Shown: in pieces, positions 38,745-54,873 of the stretch
Layout: every line of letters begins with the position of its first letter
Position numbering within the stretch: position 1 is the first letter of the stretch
Assembly (NCBI GenBank): GCA_000091205.1
Contig: AP006486.2
Direction: 5' to 3' (one strand)
Source of the DNA: Cyanidioschyzon merolae
Taxonomy: Eukaryota
DNA: 64,000 nucleotides
Program-made: the position numbers and the translations under genes
The notes under the pieces: generated by a model
The model's input: only the letters and a program-made list of their open reading frames with translations
Told to the model about the DNA's origin: nothing
The model's database searches: none

Positions 38745-39800
38745 ATGCACAGCGGAGAACGTCTTGTTCTCGGTATTGAAGGAAGTGCGAATAAAATCGG
38801 GGTCGGGATTGTGACGAGTGATGGTGCGATCTTAGCAAACGTTAGGCGGACGTTTGTGCCAAAGACAGGCTCGGGCTTTCAACCGCGGGAGACGGCGCGG
38901 CACCACCAAAAACACGTCGCCTCGCTCATAGAAGAGGCGCTTCACACCGCCGGGGTGCGTCCGACTGACCTCTGTGCAGTCGCGTACACAAAAGGCCCGG
39001 GCATGGGAGCCCCACTTCAGAGCTGCGCGATTGCTGCCCGCATGTTTGCGCTCATGCACGATCTTCCGCTGGTGCCGGTCAACCACTGTGTCGCGCACAT
39101 TGAGATGGGACGACTCGTCACCGGTGTCGACAATCCTGCTGTGCTCTATGTCAGCGGCGGCAACACGCAAATCATATCCTATTCCGAGGGACGATATCGC
39201 ATATTTGGGGAGACAATTGATATAGCGGTTGGGAATTGTCTGGATCGTTTTTGTCGACTCGTCGGTCTAAGCAACGACCCATCTCCTGGGTTTCAGGTGG
39301 AGCAGGAAGCCAAAAAAGGGCGACACTACGTTCCTTTACCGTATTCGGTCAAGGGTATGGATGTGAGTTTCTCGGGAATCCTCTCGCGAATCCAAGATCT
39401 TATCGGATCCTACGCTATACCTGACCTTTGCTTTTCGCTTCAGGAGACCGTGTTTGCGATGTTGGTTGAAGTCACTGAGCGCGCGATGGCGCACTGTGGC
39501 CAGCGGGATGTCCTCGTGGTGGGCGGTGTCGGTTGCAATGAGCGCCTCCAGGAGATGCTGACCACCATGTGCACTGATCGAGGTGGAAGGGCCTTCTGTA
39601 CAGACGAGCGCTTTTGTGTGGATAACGGTGCCATGATCGCTTGGACCGGCTGGCTTCAAATCTCGTCAGCTGCGCGTTTGCTTGGTTCCGAAAAACTCGA
39701 ATGGCCCTGGAGCGACTGCACAGTGACTCAGAGATACCGCACCGATGACGTAGCGATCACTTGGCGCGAGGAAGGCGCTCTGCAGCTAGCGATGGATTAG
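38745..39800 (+). CDS. KAE1: tRNA N6-adenosine threonylcarbamoyltransferase Kae1/OSGEP
   Basis: [41 protein letters not shown] and [10 protein letters not shown] match Kae1/OSGEP over the full 351 aa. Confidence 0.9.
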
Positions 39801-40551: not shown

Positions 40552-40623
40552 TGCGCAAGCGAGGAATCGAACCTCGATCTTCACGGCCACAACGTGATGT
40601 TCTGACCGTTAAACTACTTGCGC
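40552..40623 (-). tRNA. tRNA-His (anticodon GTG)
   Basis: Minus-strand sequence GCGCAAGTAGTTTAACGGTCAGAACATCACGTTGTGGCCGTGAAGATCGAGGTTCGATTCCTCGCTTGCGCA folds as a cloverleaf. Acceptor GCGCAAG/CTTGCGC, anticodon stem TCACG/CGTGA with loop TTGTGGC (GTG), T-arm CGAGGTTCGATTCCTCG, discriminator A. No genomically encoded G-1. Confidence 0.8.
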
Positions 40624-46580: not shown

Positions 46581-48560
46581 GGCAACACTCGGCGCGGGTG
46601 AAACATAACTGAGTTGAAAGACTATAGCGTGCAGATGCTCAAGCTCGTGTAACCTTTCACTGTCGTCAACATCAGTCCTTACAGGCTTTTTCTGCGTGTG
46701 TTTCCTTTCCGTTTATATTATCTTTGGCTATAAATACAACGGTATCGGGTTTACCGCTAGCTCCATTGGCAACAGCTGAAGACGCTGATGGAAGCGCTCA
46801 GGTCTCGATTTCTGCCGTTCCGGGTATTGTTCATGCATTTTATGTACAGAAGGAATTTGCGATTTCTGTTGGGTTGCACGCGTTCCTGTGCTGTGCAAAC
46901 GGCCTTGGTAGGCACTCTGCAGCGGTGACATTGGAACGTCGCCAGGTGCTCCCATACATTCACTCTATATGGCATTCTCCGGTGATCACCGTATGGAGTT
47001 TGAACGCCCGCAGCATCGCCCGGTACCTGCCCTTGACGGGCAAAGAAGGCTCCCGTCGATGCCGTCCTCCGATTTAGCGTACTGCATCGTACTCTCCCGT
47101 TACGGGCTTGTTCCAGATGCTGGCCCGGGAGAGTACTCTGTCTGCTGCAGATGCATGTACTTGCTGTTCTATTCGATATACAGGCTTTGTCGAGCTTGGT
47201 TTTGTACGTCATGAAAGAATTGCAGGGAGGAAAAGCTAACCTGGTCAACAAGTCGGGAAACTTCGATTCGTCCCGCTTTATCCGTGCAAATCGGTAACGC
47301 ACACTTGACTGGAGGCGATCCCTGGGATCATTACAGTCCGAGTCCAGCACCCTTGTCCATCTGAAGATGAGAGACGACAGCATCTGGCAACGCATCCTGT
47401 AATAGGGATCATGCTGATGTCGAATGCGGTCTTGTCGATAGCCACGAAAGAGGAATGTGTTGGATTTCGGACGGAATTGCTCATTGTACGTGACAATTTC
47501 AGTGAACTTTAGGAATGAGCGTGTGAAGAGGTCATCCAGGGACAACCATTTTGTTTCCTGTTCAATAAAGCTGCGCGAATCGCTGCGTCGACGATTTGCG
47601 ACGAAACAGAAATATCGAATACTTGATGCAAGCGTGATTTGAGCATGGAACTCGGAAGTGAGCGAAACGTGGACGCATGTACTCATGATTTGGGTAATGA
47701 TATCGGTTACTTTAGGAATCCTTATTCGATAGCGTTGCGAATCGCCTCTATTCCGTCAAATTCATGAATTCCAGCGGCTAAGCTTCGGAGCCACATCAGA
47801 TAGACGACCGAGTATCCTGGACCTTCGTATGAATCCGTATGTCGGTATCGCTGTACTTCGGGCGTAGAAATTTGACATTTATGGATAATTTGGGACGAAA
47901 TCGAGTGACGGAGAACAGAGCACGCAGTTCACTTTTCGAATTAATCTTGTACGTATCTCGCACGAGACAACTTAAGTGCCTGCCTGGATATTCTCAATAT
48001 TTCTCGAAGGCTTAAGATTAGCTCCCGCTTGTCGTGACTGAGAAACGGAGGCGTTGCCGGTGGCGCTCAGCGGTCCCAAGGTGTCGTGATGCAACTCGTT
48101 GCGCTCTGAACGGTCGAACAGGGTTTGGGCCCCTGAACCCGTGCCTCTCCGAGCTGATCACTTTCTGGCATCGAAGGCATTGGAACAGGCCCTAGCCGAT
48201 AAGATGCAGCACAGCAACCTCATTGGAATCGTTATCGAACTTGAGGCGCACTTTCCGTCACTGCAGACTGAAGATGCTTCAACTCCATCCAGCTGAGGAA
48301 GCTGCAGTTCGCAGCTGTGCAACAGTGGTTGTGCCCCAGTGAGGCACTCTTCGGATATTTGTTTTCATATCGGATGCTTTACAAGTGCACCGGCCTGTCC
48401 GAACTGAATGAGTCACAGCACAATCTGAGTATCGCCATGCTCTTTACGTTCCCATCTAATACAGGGCAACCTGGCTCCATGACCATCTTCTCTTGTACCA
48501 GATATCCGCACCAGCGACATTCCCTGGTGTCGTTGTATTCGAAACTGCTGCTCGCTCGCC

Positions 48561-49232
48561 TCATTCCATCTTATAGACGCAATGGCCTGGTGGTCCTGCA
48601 CTCCTCACAAACAACGTATAGATGAATGCGCCGTACAGCTGGGTACCGTTCTGGATCGGATCAATTGTGAATGCGGTTTCCCTGTTACCAGGGTAACAAT
48701 TTGACGGCAGGATGCCAAGCGCCGAGTTTGTTGAGTTTTCGAAATCAACGACCCCGCTGCTCAACACGAACGGAAAACCAACGGGCCCTGCTGCGGTCAT
48801 GTTGAACGCAGCGCAGGAGACACCATCAACGAGCACGTTTCCACTCGGAACTGTACCCGGTGCAGAAAACTTGTGGCGAACGACGATTTCCGGCGTACAG
48901 TTCGTCGCGGAGATCGGCGTGGTATAGAGCTTATAAGTTCCGGCCGGGACAGTGATTGACTCCAGCGTCTGCAGCGGCTGCAGCGCAAAAGAGCTATTAT
49001 AGGCAGCAATCGTGCACGTCGACACGCAGAGTGCCGAAGAGGGGCATAAGGCGCCGCAGTAACACTCCGTCTCACAGGCTGTATCGGGGACCACTTTCAG
49101 GCTGAACAGCCCCAGTCGACTGGAACCGCAGTCATAAAGACACCGTGCAGCTCTGGCGGAGCTTGCACTCAATGAAACTACAACAATAGCCCATATGGTG
49201 AGTGCAACTGCAAAATACCGCGAAAAAATCAT
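48561..49232 (-). CDS. hypothetical secreted cysteine-rich protein (N-terminal signal peptide)
   Basis: MIFSRYFAVALTIWAIVVVSLSASSARA looks like a signal peptide, followed by a Cys-rich region. No homolog recognised. Confidence 0.35.
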   Translation of the reverse strand: MIFSRYFAVALTIWAIVVVSLSASSARAARCLYDCGSSRLGLFSLKVVPDTACETECYCGALCPSSALCVSTCTIAAYNSSFALQPLQTLESITVPAGTYKLYTTPISATNCTPEIVVRHKFSAPGTVPSGNVLVDGVSCAAFNMTAAGPVGFPFVLSSGVVDFENSTNSALGILPSNCYPGNRETAFTIDPIQNGTQLYGAFIYTLFVRSAGPPGHCVYKME

Positions 49233-49587
49233 TGGTTGCTACTTTCTAAGTTCCACTCTCCTACACGCAAGTGCTTATACACTCGTAGGCTCAATTCTGG
49301 TTCCAAGAAAAATGACGCATTGATACGAGATTGCACGTCAGTTACGGGCAGCGCACAAAGAGCGCTCAGATCAGCGTAGAAACGATCGAGCGATCGTTGC
49401 TGAGCTCGCGTACGGGATGCACCAACGCACGAGAAACTCCACTCGATACGCCATGCGGTTGCGTCAAGCATGCGAGCACAGCCCAAAATTGTTCATTCGA
49501 TACGCTGGACACGTCACGTGAATGCAATGCGCGCATGCGGGCGCTTGAGGCGTGAATGAATGGCGATCGTCGGGGTATACGATATCT

Positions 49588-51960
49588 GTGCATTTCTATC
49601 CTCTAAACTCAATTGTGTTCCATCGCCAGGTGCGTGGAATCAAATGCTCTTCCGCGGTTCATTGCAGACGTGCTCGATGTGGGTTCATTTGAAGAAATAA
49701 AAAGTTCTGCGAATGGAATTGGAGACTTCTGGAAGCCTGATTTCGCCGGCTGCCGCAGAAAAACGAAAAGCAGTGTTGAGCGAAGAGGAACAAGACAGCA
49801 TGAAGAGGCAGAGGCAGGAGGCCCTGCGTCAAAAGCTGCTCGAAAGATGAGAGTACGACGAGACGGTCGTGGACGCCTGTCTTCTTGTACATGTCAAGGA
49901 TCCGTATGAGCAAACGATGCAAGCGGACGTCAGAAACCGTGTCGAGTCGTACCGCATAAGTATGATAAAGGCCGCTCCAAGACTGATGTATGTGGTAACG
50001 AAAGTGTATCGCGACATAACGCACGCGGAAACAATCGAGTTTCCAGAGGAAATTTCCAACGTAACCTTCATCGGCCACCTGACGCTTGCCACCGGGGAAA
50101 CGTCGAGGTGAAATGAGCGGGTGCATGGCCTCCATGAAAATTACGCCAAATACCGCCTCAACGGCACTCGATACAGGGATGACTCGGGTGTTTACACCTA
50201 CGGGGCGTTGAATTACCCTACGAACCTGAGAAAGCATATGAACATGAACCTGAAACGCTTCATGGTACGCGCCGTCATTGCGCTGTACCCGGGCCTCTCT
50301 CGCAAAGGGATACGAGTCATCATCCGTGGCATCACGAATGATCGACAGCATGAACAGGAGATCGAATTCTTCCACAAGAAGACATCACGCAAGAGAAAGA
50401 ATGAAGCTTCTGTAATCCGTGCGGCTATTATTGAGCACCGTGCAGTCTTGGGGCTTGTCAACCTACAAGAAAAGATATCAGATAGGAAAAAAGATGAAGA
50501 AAGATGTTATCCCCTAATCCTGCGCAATTTCGTGTTTTTTGACCGAGAACTCGAACGCAAAGCCGACATGGAGCTGAGTAGGGGAAAATGCGCAGTCGGA
50601 GAGACGCAAGGCTGCGGTTCCGGGGAGGCGCCTCAATATCGTTCCGTTATGCTACGTCAAGTCACGCGTTGTGACAATCGACTCCACAATCCTTTATACC
50701 ATCATGAAGGAGATCAGTCCCGAGTTCAATGCAAGCAGGGAGAAGTTCACCCGCGGAGACGGGAAAATCTACCGGATGAATATCTTCGATTTCAAGCGCC
50801 TCAACACCAGCAAGAAAAAGTTATTCACTGGGATGATCGAAAGCGATGGAGTAGCCGTGTGTGGAGACTATCGGCGCTTGAAGGCGGATCGCCCAGTTCC
50901 GTCATCGGCTTCGCCCTTGGCGAAGCATGAAGAAAACAAAGAGGCTGGCAGTACGAAACAGGAGGCGCAGGAGGACGACTGTGCCGTTGGCGCGGACCCG
51001 GGAACACGAATATCGTACCCATCGCAGCACCCAAGCGTGCGGAAGACGGTATCGACGGCAACTTACGCCACAATGACATGCGACTTCCAAAGTACTTGAG
51101 AGCGAAAAATTGCCGATAATCGGGAATAATGAATGCAAGGAAGGAAAGTGAGACATGGAATGCAGGAGTGAGCGCGCACCTGGAAGCTATGAGCAATTTC
51201 GCGAGTCGTGGATCGAACTTTCATTTCTTTCGTGAATTCATGGAATATCAAGCTGCTCGTGACGAGGAGCTGTGGAAATAGCAAACAGAACCGCGATGGG
51301 CTCGTCTGCGAATGAATCCGCACAGAGGGAAGCAGCGCGCGTTCGCGAAATTTTTCAAACAGTTGATTGCCCTCATGGAGGACAAGAGTCAAAGGCTCAT
51401 ACTAGCATACGGAACTGGGCGCTGGGCACCCGGAAAAGGGTGTGTACCCGCCCCGTCGACGAGAGCGTACAAGGAGTGCGCACGATGTTTTGTCACGATA
51501 CCGGTAGATGAGCTCCGAACATCGTATGTGGATCATGAACTGGGATGTCCACCTCCGAGAGTCGAGATGGAAAAGTGCCCGTGGAGCCCTGAGGATATAA
51601 AAAAGCACGGAGAGCTGACGGAGCATCAAATGGCTCAGAGGGCGCGAGTTGGAGGACTCCTTGCATAGGTGAGCTCTACCAACGGTAACAAACGCACTGA
51701 CTTCGTGAACCCAGACTTTAACGCCGCTATCAATATCAGACGACGTGCTGTATTGGAGAAGAGATATCCCGAGCTAACGAGAGCCAACTTTGTCGGGCAA
51801 CCTCTTAAGGTGGCACTCTACGAGAAGCATTTGAAACCGATCGCAGCGGGCCGGTCGTAAACGGCCGGGAGACGCCTGCCGGGTGGATACCTATCTACCC
51901 TATGTGGCCGTGGAACATTTTTCGTTTCACTGACAAATGAGTTTGCGCTGGTAGCGCGTA
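49588..51960 (+). mobile_element. Fanzor1-like element copy 3 (family B, ~55-60% protein identity to family A), 3' end approximate
   Basis: 5' boundary was set by the end of homology with mini-element 2. The 3' region gggccggtcgtaaacggccgggagacgcctgc parallels the family-A ggtggccggtccaaaaagactgcgaggcgcctgc. Confidence 0.6.
49700..51860 (+). pseudogene. Fanzor1-like nuclease ORF copy 3, broken into pieces (49869..50111, 50121..50930, 50671..51099, 51312..51668, 51669..51860)
   Basis: N-terminal MYVVTKVYRDITHAETIEFPEEISNVTFIGHL and NERVHGLHENY...LYPGLSRKG...IEHRAVLGLVN...FVFFDRELERKA are homologous to copies 1 and 2. RuvC-I DDCAVGADPGTR has a frameshift inside the motif. Zinc finger KECARCF...HELGCP...KCPWSPEDIKKHG. 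RuvC-III DFVNPDFNAAINIRRR at ~51705-51737. Confidence 0.65.
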
Positions 51961-53802: not shown

Positions 53803-54873
53803 ATGTTGAGCAGTGCAGTTCAAGGTTTAAGCTTTCTGAATCGACAACGACGACTGTTGCCGCTGCTGCTGCTGCAACGCTGGTCTCGTTGCGAGCTGGC
53901 AACTGCAGTCAAACCGAAAGCAGAGACCGGCGCTGCTGATGATGCCGTTGCAACTGAACATGACTCTTGGAGCCGGGCGACTTGTCAAGAAGCCGAAAGT
54001 CCTCCACAGCGAACCGCTGAGCACGCCAGTTTGCTCGTTTCCGAGATATTTGCGTCGATCCAGGGCGAGGGTCCCTTTTGCGGTTCACCTTCGATTTTTC
54101 TACGCCTCGGTTTATGCAACTTAGAATGCATCTGGTGTGACACGAAATACACTTGGTTATTTAGCGAGCAGCGCCTAGCCCGGCTGCAGTCCCGTAGTCG
54201 CGCCCGTGACGGCAGTGCCACAACACCCGGTTCAAGTCAGCAGCAGGAGCAGCCGCTTGCGTCGCAGAAAGCCAACTTCTGTACAGTTTTTGATAGACAC
54301 AAGGAGCTGCGACGGCTCTCTATAGAGGAAGTTTGCAGATGCATCGAGCTCGCCCGGGAAGGAACGCGAGCAGATGCTGTAGTGGTCACTGGGGGTGAGC
54401 CACTTCTGCATCTAAAACCTCTACGACCGCTCGTGAAGCATCTCGTACAGGATCTCGAGCTGAGAGTCGAATTCGAAACGAACGGCACGATCATGCCGCA
54501 GGTCCTGCTTGATGTCGATCACGAAGCGAAACAGCGAATCCACTTCAATGTTTCACCTAAGCTAGCGAATTCGCTTCAGTCAGCAAAACAGCGATTGCGA
54601 TGGGATATACTCCATTACTACGCGACCCAGCTTCCGCACCAATCAATCTTCAAGTTCGTTGTTGATCGCGAAGAAGACCTCGCTGAAGTGGAAATGATTG
54701 TGAATGAACTGCAGTTACCGAGGACCCGCGTCTGGCTCATGCCGCAAGGCACGACAAGCGAATCGCTCGCACTTGCTGCCAGAGAACGAGTCATCCCTTG
54801 GTGTCTGCGCCTCGGCTTCCGCTACAGCCATCGTGTCCATATCGCGATATGGAATGATCGCAGAGGAGTCTAG
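53803..54873 (+). CDS. queE: 7-carboxy-7-deazaguanine synthase QueE-like radical-SAM enzyme with ~60-aa N-terminal extension and a low-complexity insert
   Basis: IFASIQGEGPFCGSPSIFLRLGLCNLECIWCDTKYTW matches the QueE signature (IFxxxQGEGxxxGxPxxFxRLxGCNLxCxWCDTxYxW) including the Cx14Cx2C cluster-binding variant. The downstream AVVVTGGEPLLH matches the QueE SAM-binding motif. Confidence 0.75.
   Translation: MLSSAVQGLSFLNRQRRLLPLLLLQRWSRCELATAVKPKAETGAADDAVATEHDSWSRATCQEAESPPQRTAEHASLLVSEIFASIQGEGPFCGSPSIFLRLGLCNLECIWCDTKYTWLFSEQRLARLQSRSRARDGSATTPGSSQQQEQPLASQKANFCTVFDRHKELRRLSIEEVCRCIELAREGTRADAVVVTGGEPLLHLKPLRPLVKHLVQDLELRVEFETNGTIMPQVLLDVDHEAKQRIHFNVSPKLANSLQSAKQRLRWDILHYYATQLPHQSIFKFVVDREEDLAEVEMIVNELQLPRTRVWLMPQGTTSESLALAARERVIPWCLRLGFRYSHRVHIAIWNDRRGV

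What the first reader, a model, noticed from the sequence alone, without database searches (positions are those of the whole stretch)
53803..54873. Bacterial-type QueE (7-carboxy-7-deazaguanine synthase) encoded in a eukaryotic nuclear context
The QueE radical-SAM signature, including the unusual Cx14Cx2C motif, is unmistakable. Eukaryotes are generally described as salvaging queuine rather than making 7-deazaguanines de novo. The ORF has an N-terminal extension (possible organelle targeting) and host-like GC and codon use. It sits between ordinary eukaryotic genes, so it is not a contaminant. It could mark organelle-localised preQ0/queuosine synthesis or another 7-deazaguanine pathway acquired by endosymbiotic or horizontal transfer.
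Basis: partly seen in the sequence, partly recalled or inferred. Interest (0 to 1): 0.6.

Follow-up and report, generated by a model that had tools for sequence, protein, structure and literature searches.

The report
Nuclear QueE gene in a red alga
A red alga carries a genuine, conserved nuclear gene for QueE, an enzyme of 7-deazaguanine (queuosine precursor) synthesis that eukaryotes are said to lack; its closest relatives are Asgard archaeal enzymes, not cyanobacterial ones, but the rest of the pathway could not be confirmed.

Summary
The ORF at 53803-54873 (+) is real. It is 100% identical to a 'hypothetical protein, conserved' of Cyanidioschyzon merolae 10D. [quoted passage not shown]

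The cluster motif is the canonical C105-x3-C109-x2-C112, not Cx14Cx2C.

The gene is not contamination:
- Its neighbours are eukaryotic.
- Gene order is conserved in Cyanidiococcus.
- The Galdieria and Porphyridium orthologs contain introns.

Orthologs occur across red algae and in the glaucophyte Cyanophora. All carry Arg-rich, acid-poor N-terminal extensions that look like organelle presequences, more mitochondrial than plastid.

The closest prokaryotic relatives are Heimdall-group Asgard archaea (Kariarchaeaceae). They share a homologous insertion of about 22-25 residues after the cluster loop. A cyanobacterial origin is not supported.

I could not find a red-algal QueC or QueF, so pathway completeness is open. 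A QueD-like C. merolae protein (BAM79613) is cited in the Physarum genome paper. That 2015 paper also reported preQ1 genes in a eukaryote, which is a precedent. I found no paper describing red-algal QueE.

Verdict: a real and moderately surprising new eukaryotic member of a known enzyme family.

The parts
53803..54873 (+). Complete single-exon ORF (356 aa plus stop) encoding the QueE homolog of Cyanidioschyzon merolae 10D
   Evidence: ORF list. 100% identity and coverage to C. merolae protein P0001. QueE models are the top hits.
53803..54027 (+). N-terminal extension (aa 1-75), absent from prokaryotic homologs; putative organelle presequence. The first 30 aa have 5 Arg/Lys and 0 Asp/Glu.
   Evidence: Alignment A1. 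AF2 pLDDT is below 50 for residues 1-63. Composition table across eukaryotic orthologs. There is no other Met before the core.
54043..54072 (+). N-terminal QueE substrate-binding motif E81-I-F-A-S-I-Q87-G-E89-G90 (equivalent to Q13/E15 of B. multivorans QueE)
   Evidence: Invariant in the 113-sequence alignment. Mapped onto 4njg through the phmmer alignment.
54115..54144 (+). Canonical radical-SAM [4Fe-4S] motif C105-x3-C109-x2-C112, followed by D113-T114 (the Mg/substrate site in solved QueE)
   Evidence: Regex on the translation. Invariant columns.
54157..54297 (+). Insertion after the cluster loop (aa ~119-165). The Asgard/eukaryote-type segment 'LFSEQRLARLQ...' is further expanded by a low-complexity stretch specific to Cyanidioschyzon/Cyanidiococcus.
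   Evidence: CDT-to-TGGEP spacing is 81 here, 58-100 in eukaryotes, 58-59 in Asgard and 31-52 in bacteria. Insertion similarity between eukaryotes and Asgard has z=3.8; against bacteria z~0. pLDDT is 70-76.
54388..54402 (+). T196-G-G-E-P200 SAM-binding 'GGE' motif (T90 equivalent of B. multivorans QueE)
   Evidence: Invariant columns. Alignment to 4njg and 6nhl.
54469..54486 (+). E223-F-E225-T-N-G228 strand carrying the Glu116 equivalent (E225) of B. multivorans QueE
   Evidence: Invariant E225/T226/G228. Alignment to 4njg.

Best explanation
[quoted passage not shown] QueE is a radical-SAM enzyme that uses a [4Fe-4S] cluster (C105/C109/C112), SAM and Mg2+ to contract the ring of 6-carboxy-5,6,7,8-tetrahydropterin to 7-carboxy-7-deazaguanine.

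The protein is made with an N-terminal presequence of about 75 residues. It is most likely imported into an organelle, more probably the mitochondrion than the plastid. There it would supply the 7-deazaguanine core for preQ0/preQ1. Those precursors would feed the bacterial-like TGT/QueA/QueG enzymes already reported in red algae, giving queuosine in organellar tRNAs.

The gene belongs to a QueE subfamily shared by red algae, the glaucophyte Cyanophora and Heimdall-group Asgard archaea.

Shown here: enzyme-family identity, nuclear residence, conservation, and Asgard affinity.
Inferred: catalytic activity, targeting, and the downstream use of the product.
For: Family identity:
- The top NCBIfam hits are the five QueE models.
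- The only PDB sequence hits are QueE.
- The AF2 model's best structural matches are the three solved QueEs, TMt 0.72-0.78, ahead of PFL-AE.
- Residues equivalent to B. multivorans Q13, E15, F25, R27, C31, D50/T51, T90 and E116 are Q87, E89, F99, R101, C105, D113/T114, T196 and E225. All are invariant or nearly invariant in 113 homologs.

The subfamily behaves as true QueE in prokaryotes:
- The closest insertion-bearing homolog, P0048, lies in a GTP-cyclohydrolase I - QueC - PTPS/QueD - QueE operon.
- 29 of 80 prokaryotic loci have QueC within 6 kb, mostly adjacent.

Nuclear gene:
- Neighbours include Ras, VHL, OCRL-type phosphatase/RhoGAP, PP1, Kae1/TsaD and DUF639.
- Cyanidiococcus shows the same order TsaD-PP1-...-QueE-571aa-DUF639.
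- The Galdieria and Porphyridium orthologs lie among eukaryotic genes and have gene spans exceeding the CDS, with a GTAAGT donor visible.

Conservation: orthologs are found in Cyanidiococcus, Galdieria (2 species), Porphyridium, Rhodosorus, Gracilaria, MMETSP transcripts and Cyanophora.

Presequence: eukaryotic orthologs carry Arg-rich, acid-poor extensions, typically 20-65 aa and up to about 140 aa, while Asgard homologs have 2-8 aa. Cyanophora lacks the early Phe typical of muroplast transit peptides (the Phe rule is from my own knowledge).

Downstream enzymes: PMC12301720 reports mitochondrion-targeted bacterial-like TGT, QueA and QueG in some red algae. A C. merolae QueD-like protein, BAM79613, is cited as the closest homolog of Physarum QueD.
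Against: - No QueC or QueF of C. merolae or any other red alga was found. An Asgard QueC query, a Diphylleia QueC query against 50% representatives, and an Asgard-type QueC profile returned only one eukaryotic hit, from Diphylleia. By contrast, red-algal QueE ranks directly behind Asgard QueE in the analogous local profile test.
- The protein scores far below all five curated NCBIfam QueE cut-offs (94.7 vs 260, 76.8 vs 200 and so on). The whole subfamily does too, including operon-embedded prokaryotic members.
- No Q-pathway gene lies in the 64-kb window.
- Targeting was judged only from composition, not with a trained predictor.
- There is no expression or biochemical data for C. merolae.
Confidence: 0.6

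Rival explanations
1. The QueE feeds a 7-deazapurine pathway other than tRNA queuosine. Candidates are tubercidin/toyocamycin-like nucleoside metabolites or a 7-deazaguanine DNA modification.
For: 5'-Deoxy-5-iodotubercidin, a 7-deazapurine nucleoside, was isolated from the red alga Hypnea (PMC3884313). In bacteria, QueE/QueC/QueD also serve toyocamycin-type clusters and Dpd DNA modification (established knowledge, not tested here). No QueF or tRNA-specific partner was demonstrated for C. merolae.
Against: The gene is conserved across all sampled red-algal classes and a glaucophyte, including the minimal-genome extremophile C. merolae, and always carries a presequence. That pattern fits a housekeeping organellar role better than lineage-specific secondary metabolism. 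Bacterial-like TGT/QueA/QueG are reported in red algae (PMC12301720). No DpdA-like or nucleoside-tailoring gene lies nearby.
Confidence: 0.15
2. The protein is a QueE-derived radical-SAM enzyme that has been recruited to a different substrate. On this view C. merolae lacks the rest of the preQ0 pathway, so the QueE annotation is only a homology label.
For: It fails every curated QueE equivalog threshold. No red-algal QueC was recovered in three searches. It carries an enlarged insertion and a long extension not seen in characterised QueEs.
Against: All substrate-, Mg- and SAM-binding residues known from solved QueEs are invariant. Prokaryotic members of the same subfamily score equally low on the curated models yet sit in FolE-QueC-QueD-QueE operons. 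The QueC searches listed only the best 120-150 hits, so a bacterial-type or divergent red-algal QueC would have been missed.
Confidence: 0.15
3. The ORF is prokaryotic contamination, an assembly chimera, or a very recent unexpressed transfer.
For: Homologs are overwhelmingly prokaryotic: 6,776 hits, most of the named ones bacterial or archaeal.
Against: - It is flanked on both sides, within one contiguous window, by eukaryotic genes.
- The same gene order occurs in an independently assembled Cyanidiococcus genome.
- Orthologs in Galdieria and Porphyridium contain introns.
- Orthologs occur as MMETSP transcripts.
- GC and codon use match the neighbours.
- The best prokaryotic identity is only about 40%.
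Confidence: 0.02

Closest known systems
[quoted passage not shown]
   Same: Same fold: these are the best Foldseek hits, TMt 0.72-0.78. The QGEG motif, Arg, Cys triad, Asp-Thr, TGGEP and ETNG residues are the same. The cluster motif is canonical CX3CX2C, as in the E. coli and B. subtilis enzymes.
   Different: Only 22-25% identity to the solved enzymes. Below the cut-off of all five NCBIfam QueE models. Unlike B. multivorans QueE, it has no Cx14Cx2C motif. It carries a 75-aa N-terminal extension and a 45-aa insertion after the cluster loop. E. coli QueE also has an insertion at this position, but its sequence is unrelated by my reading of the alignment. It is encoded in a eukaryotic nucleus.
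Asgard (Heimdallarchaeia: Kariarchaeaceae, Ca. Kariarchaeum pelagius) QueE in FolE-QueC-QueD-QueE operons
   Same: - Closest prokaryotic group in the NJ tree.
- Closest by profile ranking.
- Closest by group-HMM classification with the insertion removed: 43 of 48 eukaryotic sequences.
- Shares a homologous ~22-25-aa insertion, 'K-Y-T-W-L-F/Y-x-E-x-x-L-x-x-I-...-V-P-...-G-x-x-V-Y-x-K-x-x-E'.
   Different: The archaeal proteins have no N-terminal extension and lie in operons. There preQ0 presumably feeds archaeosine (established knowledge). Identity to the C. merolae protein is only about 40%. Bootstrap support for the joint clade is weak (8%). C. merolae itself scores slightly better on a short-spacer prokaryotic HMM once the insertion is removed.
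Physarum polycephalum preQ1 pathway genes (QueD, QueE, QueC, QueF) reported in the 2015 genome paper (PMC4758236)
   Same: A published case of a eukaryotic genome encoding 7-deazaguanine biosynthesis enzymes. The closest homolog of its QueD is a C. merolae protein, BAM79613.
   Different: The closest relative of Physarum QueE is Novosphingobium, a bacterial group with 47-residue spacing. It is not the Asgard/red-algal type. Origins are mosaic: Rhodospirillum for QueC and Moritella for QueF. No Physarum protein appears among the top 120 relatives of the C. merolae protein.
Bacterial-like mitochondrial Q salvage module (BL-TGT, QueA, QueG, YhhQ) of Chloropicon and some red algae (PMC12301720)
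   Same: Prokaryote-derived queuosine enzymes that are nuclear-encoded, predicted to be organelle-targeted, and present in red algae. This is the logical consumer of the product of a QueE-containing pathway.
   Different: That work proposes salvage of imported preQ1. It states that all eukaryotes studied depend on salvage and does not mention QueC, QueD, QueE or QueF. QueE acts upstream, in de novo synthesis.

Membership tests
[quoted passage not shown] | Three-Cys [4Fe-4S]/SAM motif in the loop after strand 1 | tested here: met
   C105-x3-C109-x2-C112. Invariant in 113 homologs. Pfam Radical_SAM 31.1 bits (GA 29.5) and Fer4_12 24.6 bits (GA 22).
[quoted passage not shown] | N-terminal E-x-F-x-S-x-Q-G-E-G motif plus Arg on strand 1 that bind the pterin substrate (Q13, E15, R27 in B. 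multivorans QueE) | tested here: met
   E81, F83, S85, Q87, G88, E89, G90 and R101 are present and invariant or nearly so. Positions were mapped by the phmmer alignment to 4njg. The residue roles are from my own knowledge of the published B. multivorans QueE structure.
[quoted passage not shown] | Asp-Thr after the last Cys (Mg2+ site), Thr of TGGEP, and Glu of ETNG (D50/T51, T90, E116 equivalents) | tested here: met
   D113/T114, T196 and E225 are invariant or nearly invariant.
[quoted passage not shown] | QueE-type abbreviated partial TIM-barrel fold | tested here: met
   The AF2 core has pLDDT above 95. The five top Foldseek PDB hits are QueE chains (E 2e-14 to 1e-10), and B. multivorans QueE is at rank 7.
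[quoted passage not shown] | Score at or above the curated NCBIfam equivalog cut-off | tested here: not met
   94.7/260.1, 76.8/200, 70.3/300, 67.1/206.1 and 36.3/240 bits. The same shortfall (80-117 bits) holds for all ten tested subfamily members, including operon-embedded and PGAP-named QueEs. This means the models do not cover the subfamily. It does not count against QueE identity.
[quoted passage not shown] | Genomic or pathway association with QueC, QueD and GTP cyclohydrolase I | tested here: inconclusive
   Met for prokaryotic relatives. In C. merolae none of these genes is in the window. QueC was not found in red algae by three capped searches. A QueD-like C. merolae protein is cited in PMC4758236.
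[quoted passage not shown] | Catalyses CPH4 -> CDG + NH3 | not testable with these tools
   Requires an enzyme assay or complementation.
Cx14Cx2C QueE subfamily (TIGR04508, B. multivorans type) | 11-residue insertion inside the Cys motif, giving Cx14Cx2C | tested here: not met
   No Cx14Cx2C match was found. C93 lies 11 residues before C105 and is not conserved. TIGR04508 is the weakest of the five QueE models (36.3 bits).
Asgard/eukaryote-type QueE clade (defined here) | A ~22-25-residue insertion directly after C-D-T-K-Y-T-W, with recognisable sequence similarity | tested here: met
   Spacing analysis. Smith-Waterman scores against shuffles: C. merolae vs Asgard z=4.2, all eukaryotes vs Asgard z=3.8, eukaryotes vs bacterial insertion groups z~0.
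Complete de novo queuosine pathway in a eukaryote | QueC, QueF, bacterial-type TGT, QueA and QueG/QueH present in the same genome | not testable with these tools
[quoted passage not shown]

The most novel reading that the evidence does not exclude
Red algae and glaucophytes, and possibly the CRuMs protist Diphylleia, whose QueC is also Asgard-type and carries a presequence, retain a 7-deazaguanine (preQ0) biosynthesis pathway. The pathway would be inherited from, or anciently acquired from, Heimdall-group Asgard archaea. It now works in an organelle and makes these the first eukaryotes able to produce queuosine precursors without bacteria. If vertical, LECA had the pathway and most eukaryotes became queuine auxotrophs by loss.
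Probability: 0.2. Interest if true: 0.8.

Novelty: new member of a known kind. Interest (0 to 1): 0.55.

Why it matters
Queuine is treated as a bacterial 'vitamin' that every eukaryote must salvage (PMC4425180, PMC9881137, PMC12301720).

A conserved, intron-bearing, presequence-carrying QueE across red algae and a glaucophyte suggests that a major photosynthetic lineage may make the 7-deazaguanine core itself. C. merolae is an obligate photoautotroph from acidic hot springs with little bacterial supply (my own knowledge of its ecology).

It also makes C. merolae a convenient system for testing eukaryotic de novo Q synthesis directly, because it is axenic, genetically tractable and has very few introns (again my own knowledge).

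The Asgard affinity, shared with a Diphylleia QueC, raises an evolutionary question about the origin of the pathway in eukaryotes.

Tried and rejected
1. Cx14Cx2C motif: searched for and absent.

2. Cyanobacterial or endosymbiotic origin:
- No named cyanobacterial protein is in the top 120 database hits.
- None is among the best 80 loci of the GTDB species scan.
- The positive Asgard signal argues against a cyanobacterial origin.

3. Red-algal QueC:
- An Asgard QueC query found nothing red-algal.
- Diphylleia QueC against 1.84 billion 50% representatives also found nothing red-algal.
- An Asgard-type QueC profile likewise found nothing red-algal.
- The only eukaryotic hit was Diphylleia rotans.
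- Long or N-extended QueC representatives were inspected. They proved to be phage, intein or homing-endonuclease fusions, and P0357 sits on a phage-like contig.

4. Clustering of Q genes next to QueE: none in Galdieria, Porphyridium or Cyanidiococcus or in the window.

5. C. merolae locus look-up by exact protein: not on record.

6. AFDB50 fold search to widen the taxonomic picture: the library was unavailable.

7. Literature:
- Ten full-text searches were run. The nine aimed at this question returned no paper describing QueE, QueC or de novo 7-deazaguanine synthesis in red algae; one search checked the red-algal iodotubercidin lead.
- The eLife Cyanidiales HGT paper has no supplements held.

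8. Bootstrap NJ: the eukaryote+Asgard clade is recovered but with only 8% support, and the eukaryote clade has 55%. No ML software was available.
Full report
**1. The observation**

The window contains an ATG-initiated ORF at 53803..54873 (+) of 356 codons plus stop, exactly as reported. Its translation is 100% identical over its full length to 'hypothetical protein, conserved [Cyanidioschyzon merolae strain 10D]' on a 513,455-bp contig. The window is therefore a piece of a C. merolae nuclear chromosome.

There is no Met between codon 1 and the catalytic core, so the N-terminal extension is necessarily part of the product.

The ORF's composition resembles its neighbours. GC is 0.539 and GC3 is 0.541, against 0.52-0.61 and 0.56-0.64 in 12 neighbouring genes. 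Its codon-frequency correlation with those genes is 0.65, inside their own range of 0.54-0.85.

**2. Is it QueE?**

- Pfam sees only a generic Radical_SAM/Fer4_12 domain, just above threshold.
- The five best NCBIfam hits are the five QueE models, with E-values from 6e-27 to 5e-9.
- The only PDB sequence hits are the E. coli, B. subtilis and B. multivorans QueEs.
- An AlphaFold2 model built on a 113-sequence alignment has mean pLDDT 83 and core pLDDT above 95.
- The best structural matches of that model are those same three QueEs, with target-normalised TM-scores of 0.72-0.78, ahead of pyruvate formate-lyase activase and viperin.

Using the phmmer alignment to 4njg, I mapped the residues that bind substrate, Mg2+ and SAM in B. 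multivorans QueE. Their roles are from my knowledge of the published structure.

| B. multivorans QueE | This protein |
|---|---|
| Q13 | Q87 |
| E15 | E89 |
| F25 | F99 |
| R27 | R101 |
| C31 | C105 |
| D50/T51 | D113/T114 |
| T90 | T196 |
| E116 | E225 |

All of these are invariant or nearly invariant across 113 homologs.

The triad is the canonical C105-x3-C109-x2-C112.

**3. The sub-threshold scores**

The protein is far below every curated NCBIfam QueE cut-off, for example 94.7 bits against 260. This does not distinguish the alga, because ten other members of the subfamily score only 80-117 bits. That set includes prokaryotic proteins that NCBI names QueE.

These prokaryotic members behave as true QueE by genomic context:
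- The closest insertion-bearing relative, P0048, lies in a GTP cyclohydrolase I - QueC - PTPS/QueD - QueE operon.
- In 29 of 80 prokaryotic loci a QueC lies within 6 kb, usually adjacent. QueD is present in 10 loci and FolE in 4.

The curated models simply do not cover this subfamily.

**4. Nuclear residence**

The flanking ORFs encode typical eukaryotic proteins:
- Ras/Rab GTPase, VHL-domain protein, Band 7 and FKBP
- Mut7-C exonuclease and guanylate kinase
- an Arc1p-like tRNA-binding protein
- an OCRL-type inositol 5-phosphatase with RhoGAP
- Kae1/TsaD and PP1 phosphatase
- a START-like protein and a GRAM/DUF639 protein

The independently assembled Cyanidiococcus yangmingshanensis genome has the same order: TsaD - PP1 - ... 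- QueE - 571-aa protein - DUF639.

The Galdieria and Porphyridium orthologs lie among topoisomerase II, PGK, RPL32e, cornichon, TAF4, mTERF and GH47 genes. Their gene spans exceed the CDS by about 150 bp, and a GTAAGT donor is visible in Galdieria.

Contamination or chimerism is excluded.

**5. Distribution**

The best hits after C. merolae are listed below.

| Organism or source | Identity to C. merolae protein |
|---|---|
| Cyanidiococcus | 61% |
| Porphyridium purpureum | 43% |
| Galdieria sulphuraria | 44% |
| Galdieria phlegrea | 43% |
| Rhodosorus marinus | 40-41% |
| Gracilaria domingensis | 48% |
| two MMETSP transcripts | 42-45% |
| Cyanophora paradoxa (glaucophyte) | 36% |

There are also roughly 35 unnamed assemblies.

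In an NJ tree of 149 sequences and 224 columns, these sequences form one clade of 48 with bootstrap 55. The Cyanidiales subclade has bootstrap 96.

The Galdieria and Porphyridium proteins are already auto-annotated as QueE. The C. merolae protein is not.

**6. N-terminal extension**

Eukaryotic-clade members that begin with a Met and are not truncated carry an extension before the core, typically 20-65 residues and up to about 140. It is Arg/Lys-rich, nearly free of Asp/Glu, and Ser/Thr-rich. Several contain R-x-(F/L)-S-type motifs.

Asgard homologs have only 2-8 residues before the core. AF2 predicts C. merolae residues 1-63 as disordered.

The Cyanophora extension lacks the N-terminal Phe that I recall being typical of muroplast transit peptides. 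I therefore favour mitochondrial over plastid import. This is an inference from composition only.

**7. Origin**

The spacing between C-D-T and T-G-G-E-P separates the groups:

| Group | Spacing (residues) |
|---|---|
| Bacteria and most archaea | 31-52 |
| A compact archaeal group | 58-59 |
| Eukaryotes | 58-100 |
| C. merolae | 81 |

The archaeal group is named Candidatus Kariarchaeaceae, Ca. Kariarchaeum pelagius, Heimdallarchaeota or 'Asgard group archaeon' wherever a name exists. The 2.85-Mb contig carrying P0048 also encodes an Arf/Ras-family GTPase and a family-B polymerase.

Four lines of evidence link the eukaryotic and Asgard proteins:
- The 30 residues after 'TW' are significantly similar between eukaryotes and this Asgard group. 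The mean Smith-Waterman score is 29.5 against 15.6 for shuffles (z=3.8), and 69% of pairs exceed the 95th percentile.
- The same segment shows no similarity to the bacterial groups that also have insertions there (z~0).
- With insertion columns excluded, the NJ tree still places the Asgard-type group as sister to the eukaryotes. In addition, 43 of 48 eukaryotic sequences score best on the Asgard-group HMM, with a mean margin of 11 bits.
- An Asgard-QueE profile ranks Galdieria, Rhodosorus, Porphyridium and Cyanophora immediately after the Asgard sequences and above all bacteria.

Caveats:
- Bootstrap for the joint clade is only 8%.
- The divergent C. merolae sequence itself scores 7 bits better on a short-spacer prokaryotic HMM when the insertion is removed.
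- I could not run ML phylogenetics.

Nothing points to cyanobacteria.

**8. Rest of the pathway**

This is the weak point. I used the QueC adjacent to the Asgard QueE, then a Diphylleia QueC, and then an Asgard-type QueC profile as queries. None recovered a red-algal QueC among the best 120-150 hits.

The only eukaryotic hit was a Diphylleia rotans transcript. It is 59% identical to Asgard QueC and has a mitochondrial-looking presequence.

Red-algal QueE does rank directly behind Asgard QueE in the analogous local profile test. The absence therefore suggests one of two things: red algae lack an Asgard-type QueC, or they have one of a different origin. A bacterial-type QueC would be invisible to these capped searches.

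Two pieces of literature bear on this:
- The Physarum genome paper lists QueD, QueE, QueC and QueF in that amoebozoan. It names C. merolae BAM79613 as the closest homolog of its QueD, so C. merolae has at least a QueD/PTPS-like gene.
[quoted passage not shown] It also asserts that all eukaryotes studied depend on salvage.

**9. Mechanism proposed**

Shown:
- A conserved nuclear gene encodes a protein with every sequence and fold hallmark of QueE.

Inferred:
- After import and presequence removal, the enzyme binds a [4Fe-4S] cluster through C105/C109/C112.
- It reductively cleaves SAM and converts CPH4 to CDG. CPH4 would come from GTP via GTP cyclohydrolase I and a QueD-like enzyme.
- QueC and QueF, not yet identified, would then give preQ0 and preQ1 for the organellar bacterial-like TGT/QueA/QueG.

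Rivals:
- A role in 7-deazapurine nucleoside metabolites. A red alga, Hypnea, yielded 5'-deoxy-5-iodotubercidin.
- A role in DNA modification.
- Neofunctionalisation without QueC.

**10. Novelty**

None of the nine full-text searches aimed at this question found a paper on QueE or de novo 7-deazaguanine synthesis in red algae; one search was the iodotubercidin lead. Reviews state that queuine is made only by bacteria.

The one precedent for a eukaryote is the little-noticed Physarum annotation of 2015. The protein itself is already in public databases.

I rate this as a new eukaryotic member of a known enzyme family, with an unexpected Asgard affinity and real but unproven implications for eukaryotic queuosine autonomy.

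Noticed in passing
window 40552-40623 (-): A nuclear tRNA-His(GUG) gene lies between the Kae1/TsaD-like gene and the PP1 phosphatase gene (ARAGORN and Rfam, 70 bits). tRNA-His is one of the four GUN-anticodon tRNAs that receive queuosine. The proximity to QueE (13 kb) is probably coincidental.
   Followed up: no
window 38745-39800 (+); L085 1-144; L001 15532-16811: Enzymes of the tRNA t6A37 modification lie loosely near QueE in three red algae. A TsaD/Kae1-like gene lies 14 kb upstream in C. merolae and about 10 kb upstream in Cyanidiococcus. Sua5/TsaC lies about 5 kb downstream in Galdieria. This may be chance.
   Followed up: no
P0134 (EukProt EP00002 Diphylleia rotans transcript): A QueC from the CRuMs protist Diphylleia is 59% identical to Heimdall/Kariarchaeaceae QueC. 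It carries a ~40-aa presequence-like extension. This is a second eukaryotic 7-deazaguanine enzyme of Asgard type, from a different supergroup. Prey or contaminant origin is not excluded.
   Followed up: partly
L083 6194-8759: A Heimdall-type archaeal contig (2.85 Mb) has a tight FolE-QueC-QueD-QueE operon. It sits next to a cytochrome oxidase cluster (COX1-4), an Arf/Ras-family GTPase and a family-B DNA polymerase.
   Followed up: partly
P0279, P0281, P0293, P0320, P0375 (QueC cluster representatives): Several QueC homologs carry LAGLIDADG-like N-terminal domains or intein-like insertions that split the C-terminal Cys motif. P0357 sits on a dense phage-like contig (L084). QueC appears to be a frequent target of mobile elements.
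   Followed up: no
window 54190-54285 (aa ~130-160 of the ORF): Within the Asgard/eukaryote-type insertion, C. merolae and Cyanidiococcus have a further ~18-residue low-complexity expansion (SRSRARDGSATTPGSSQQQEQPLASQKAN). Other red algae lack it. AF2 confidence drops to about 70 here.
   Followed up: partly
window 46757-50930: Four ORFs of 223-309 aa between the PP1 gene and QueE have no Pfam match. Two of them (49659-50375 on the - strand and 50121-50930 on the + strand) overlap on opposite strands, so at most one is likely real.
   Followed up: no
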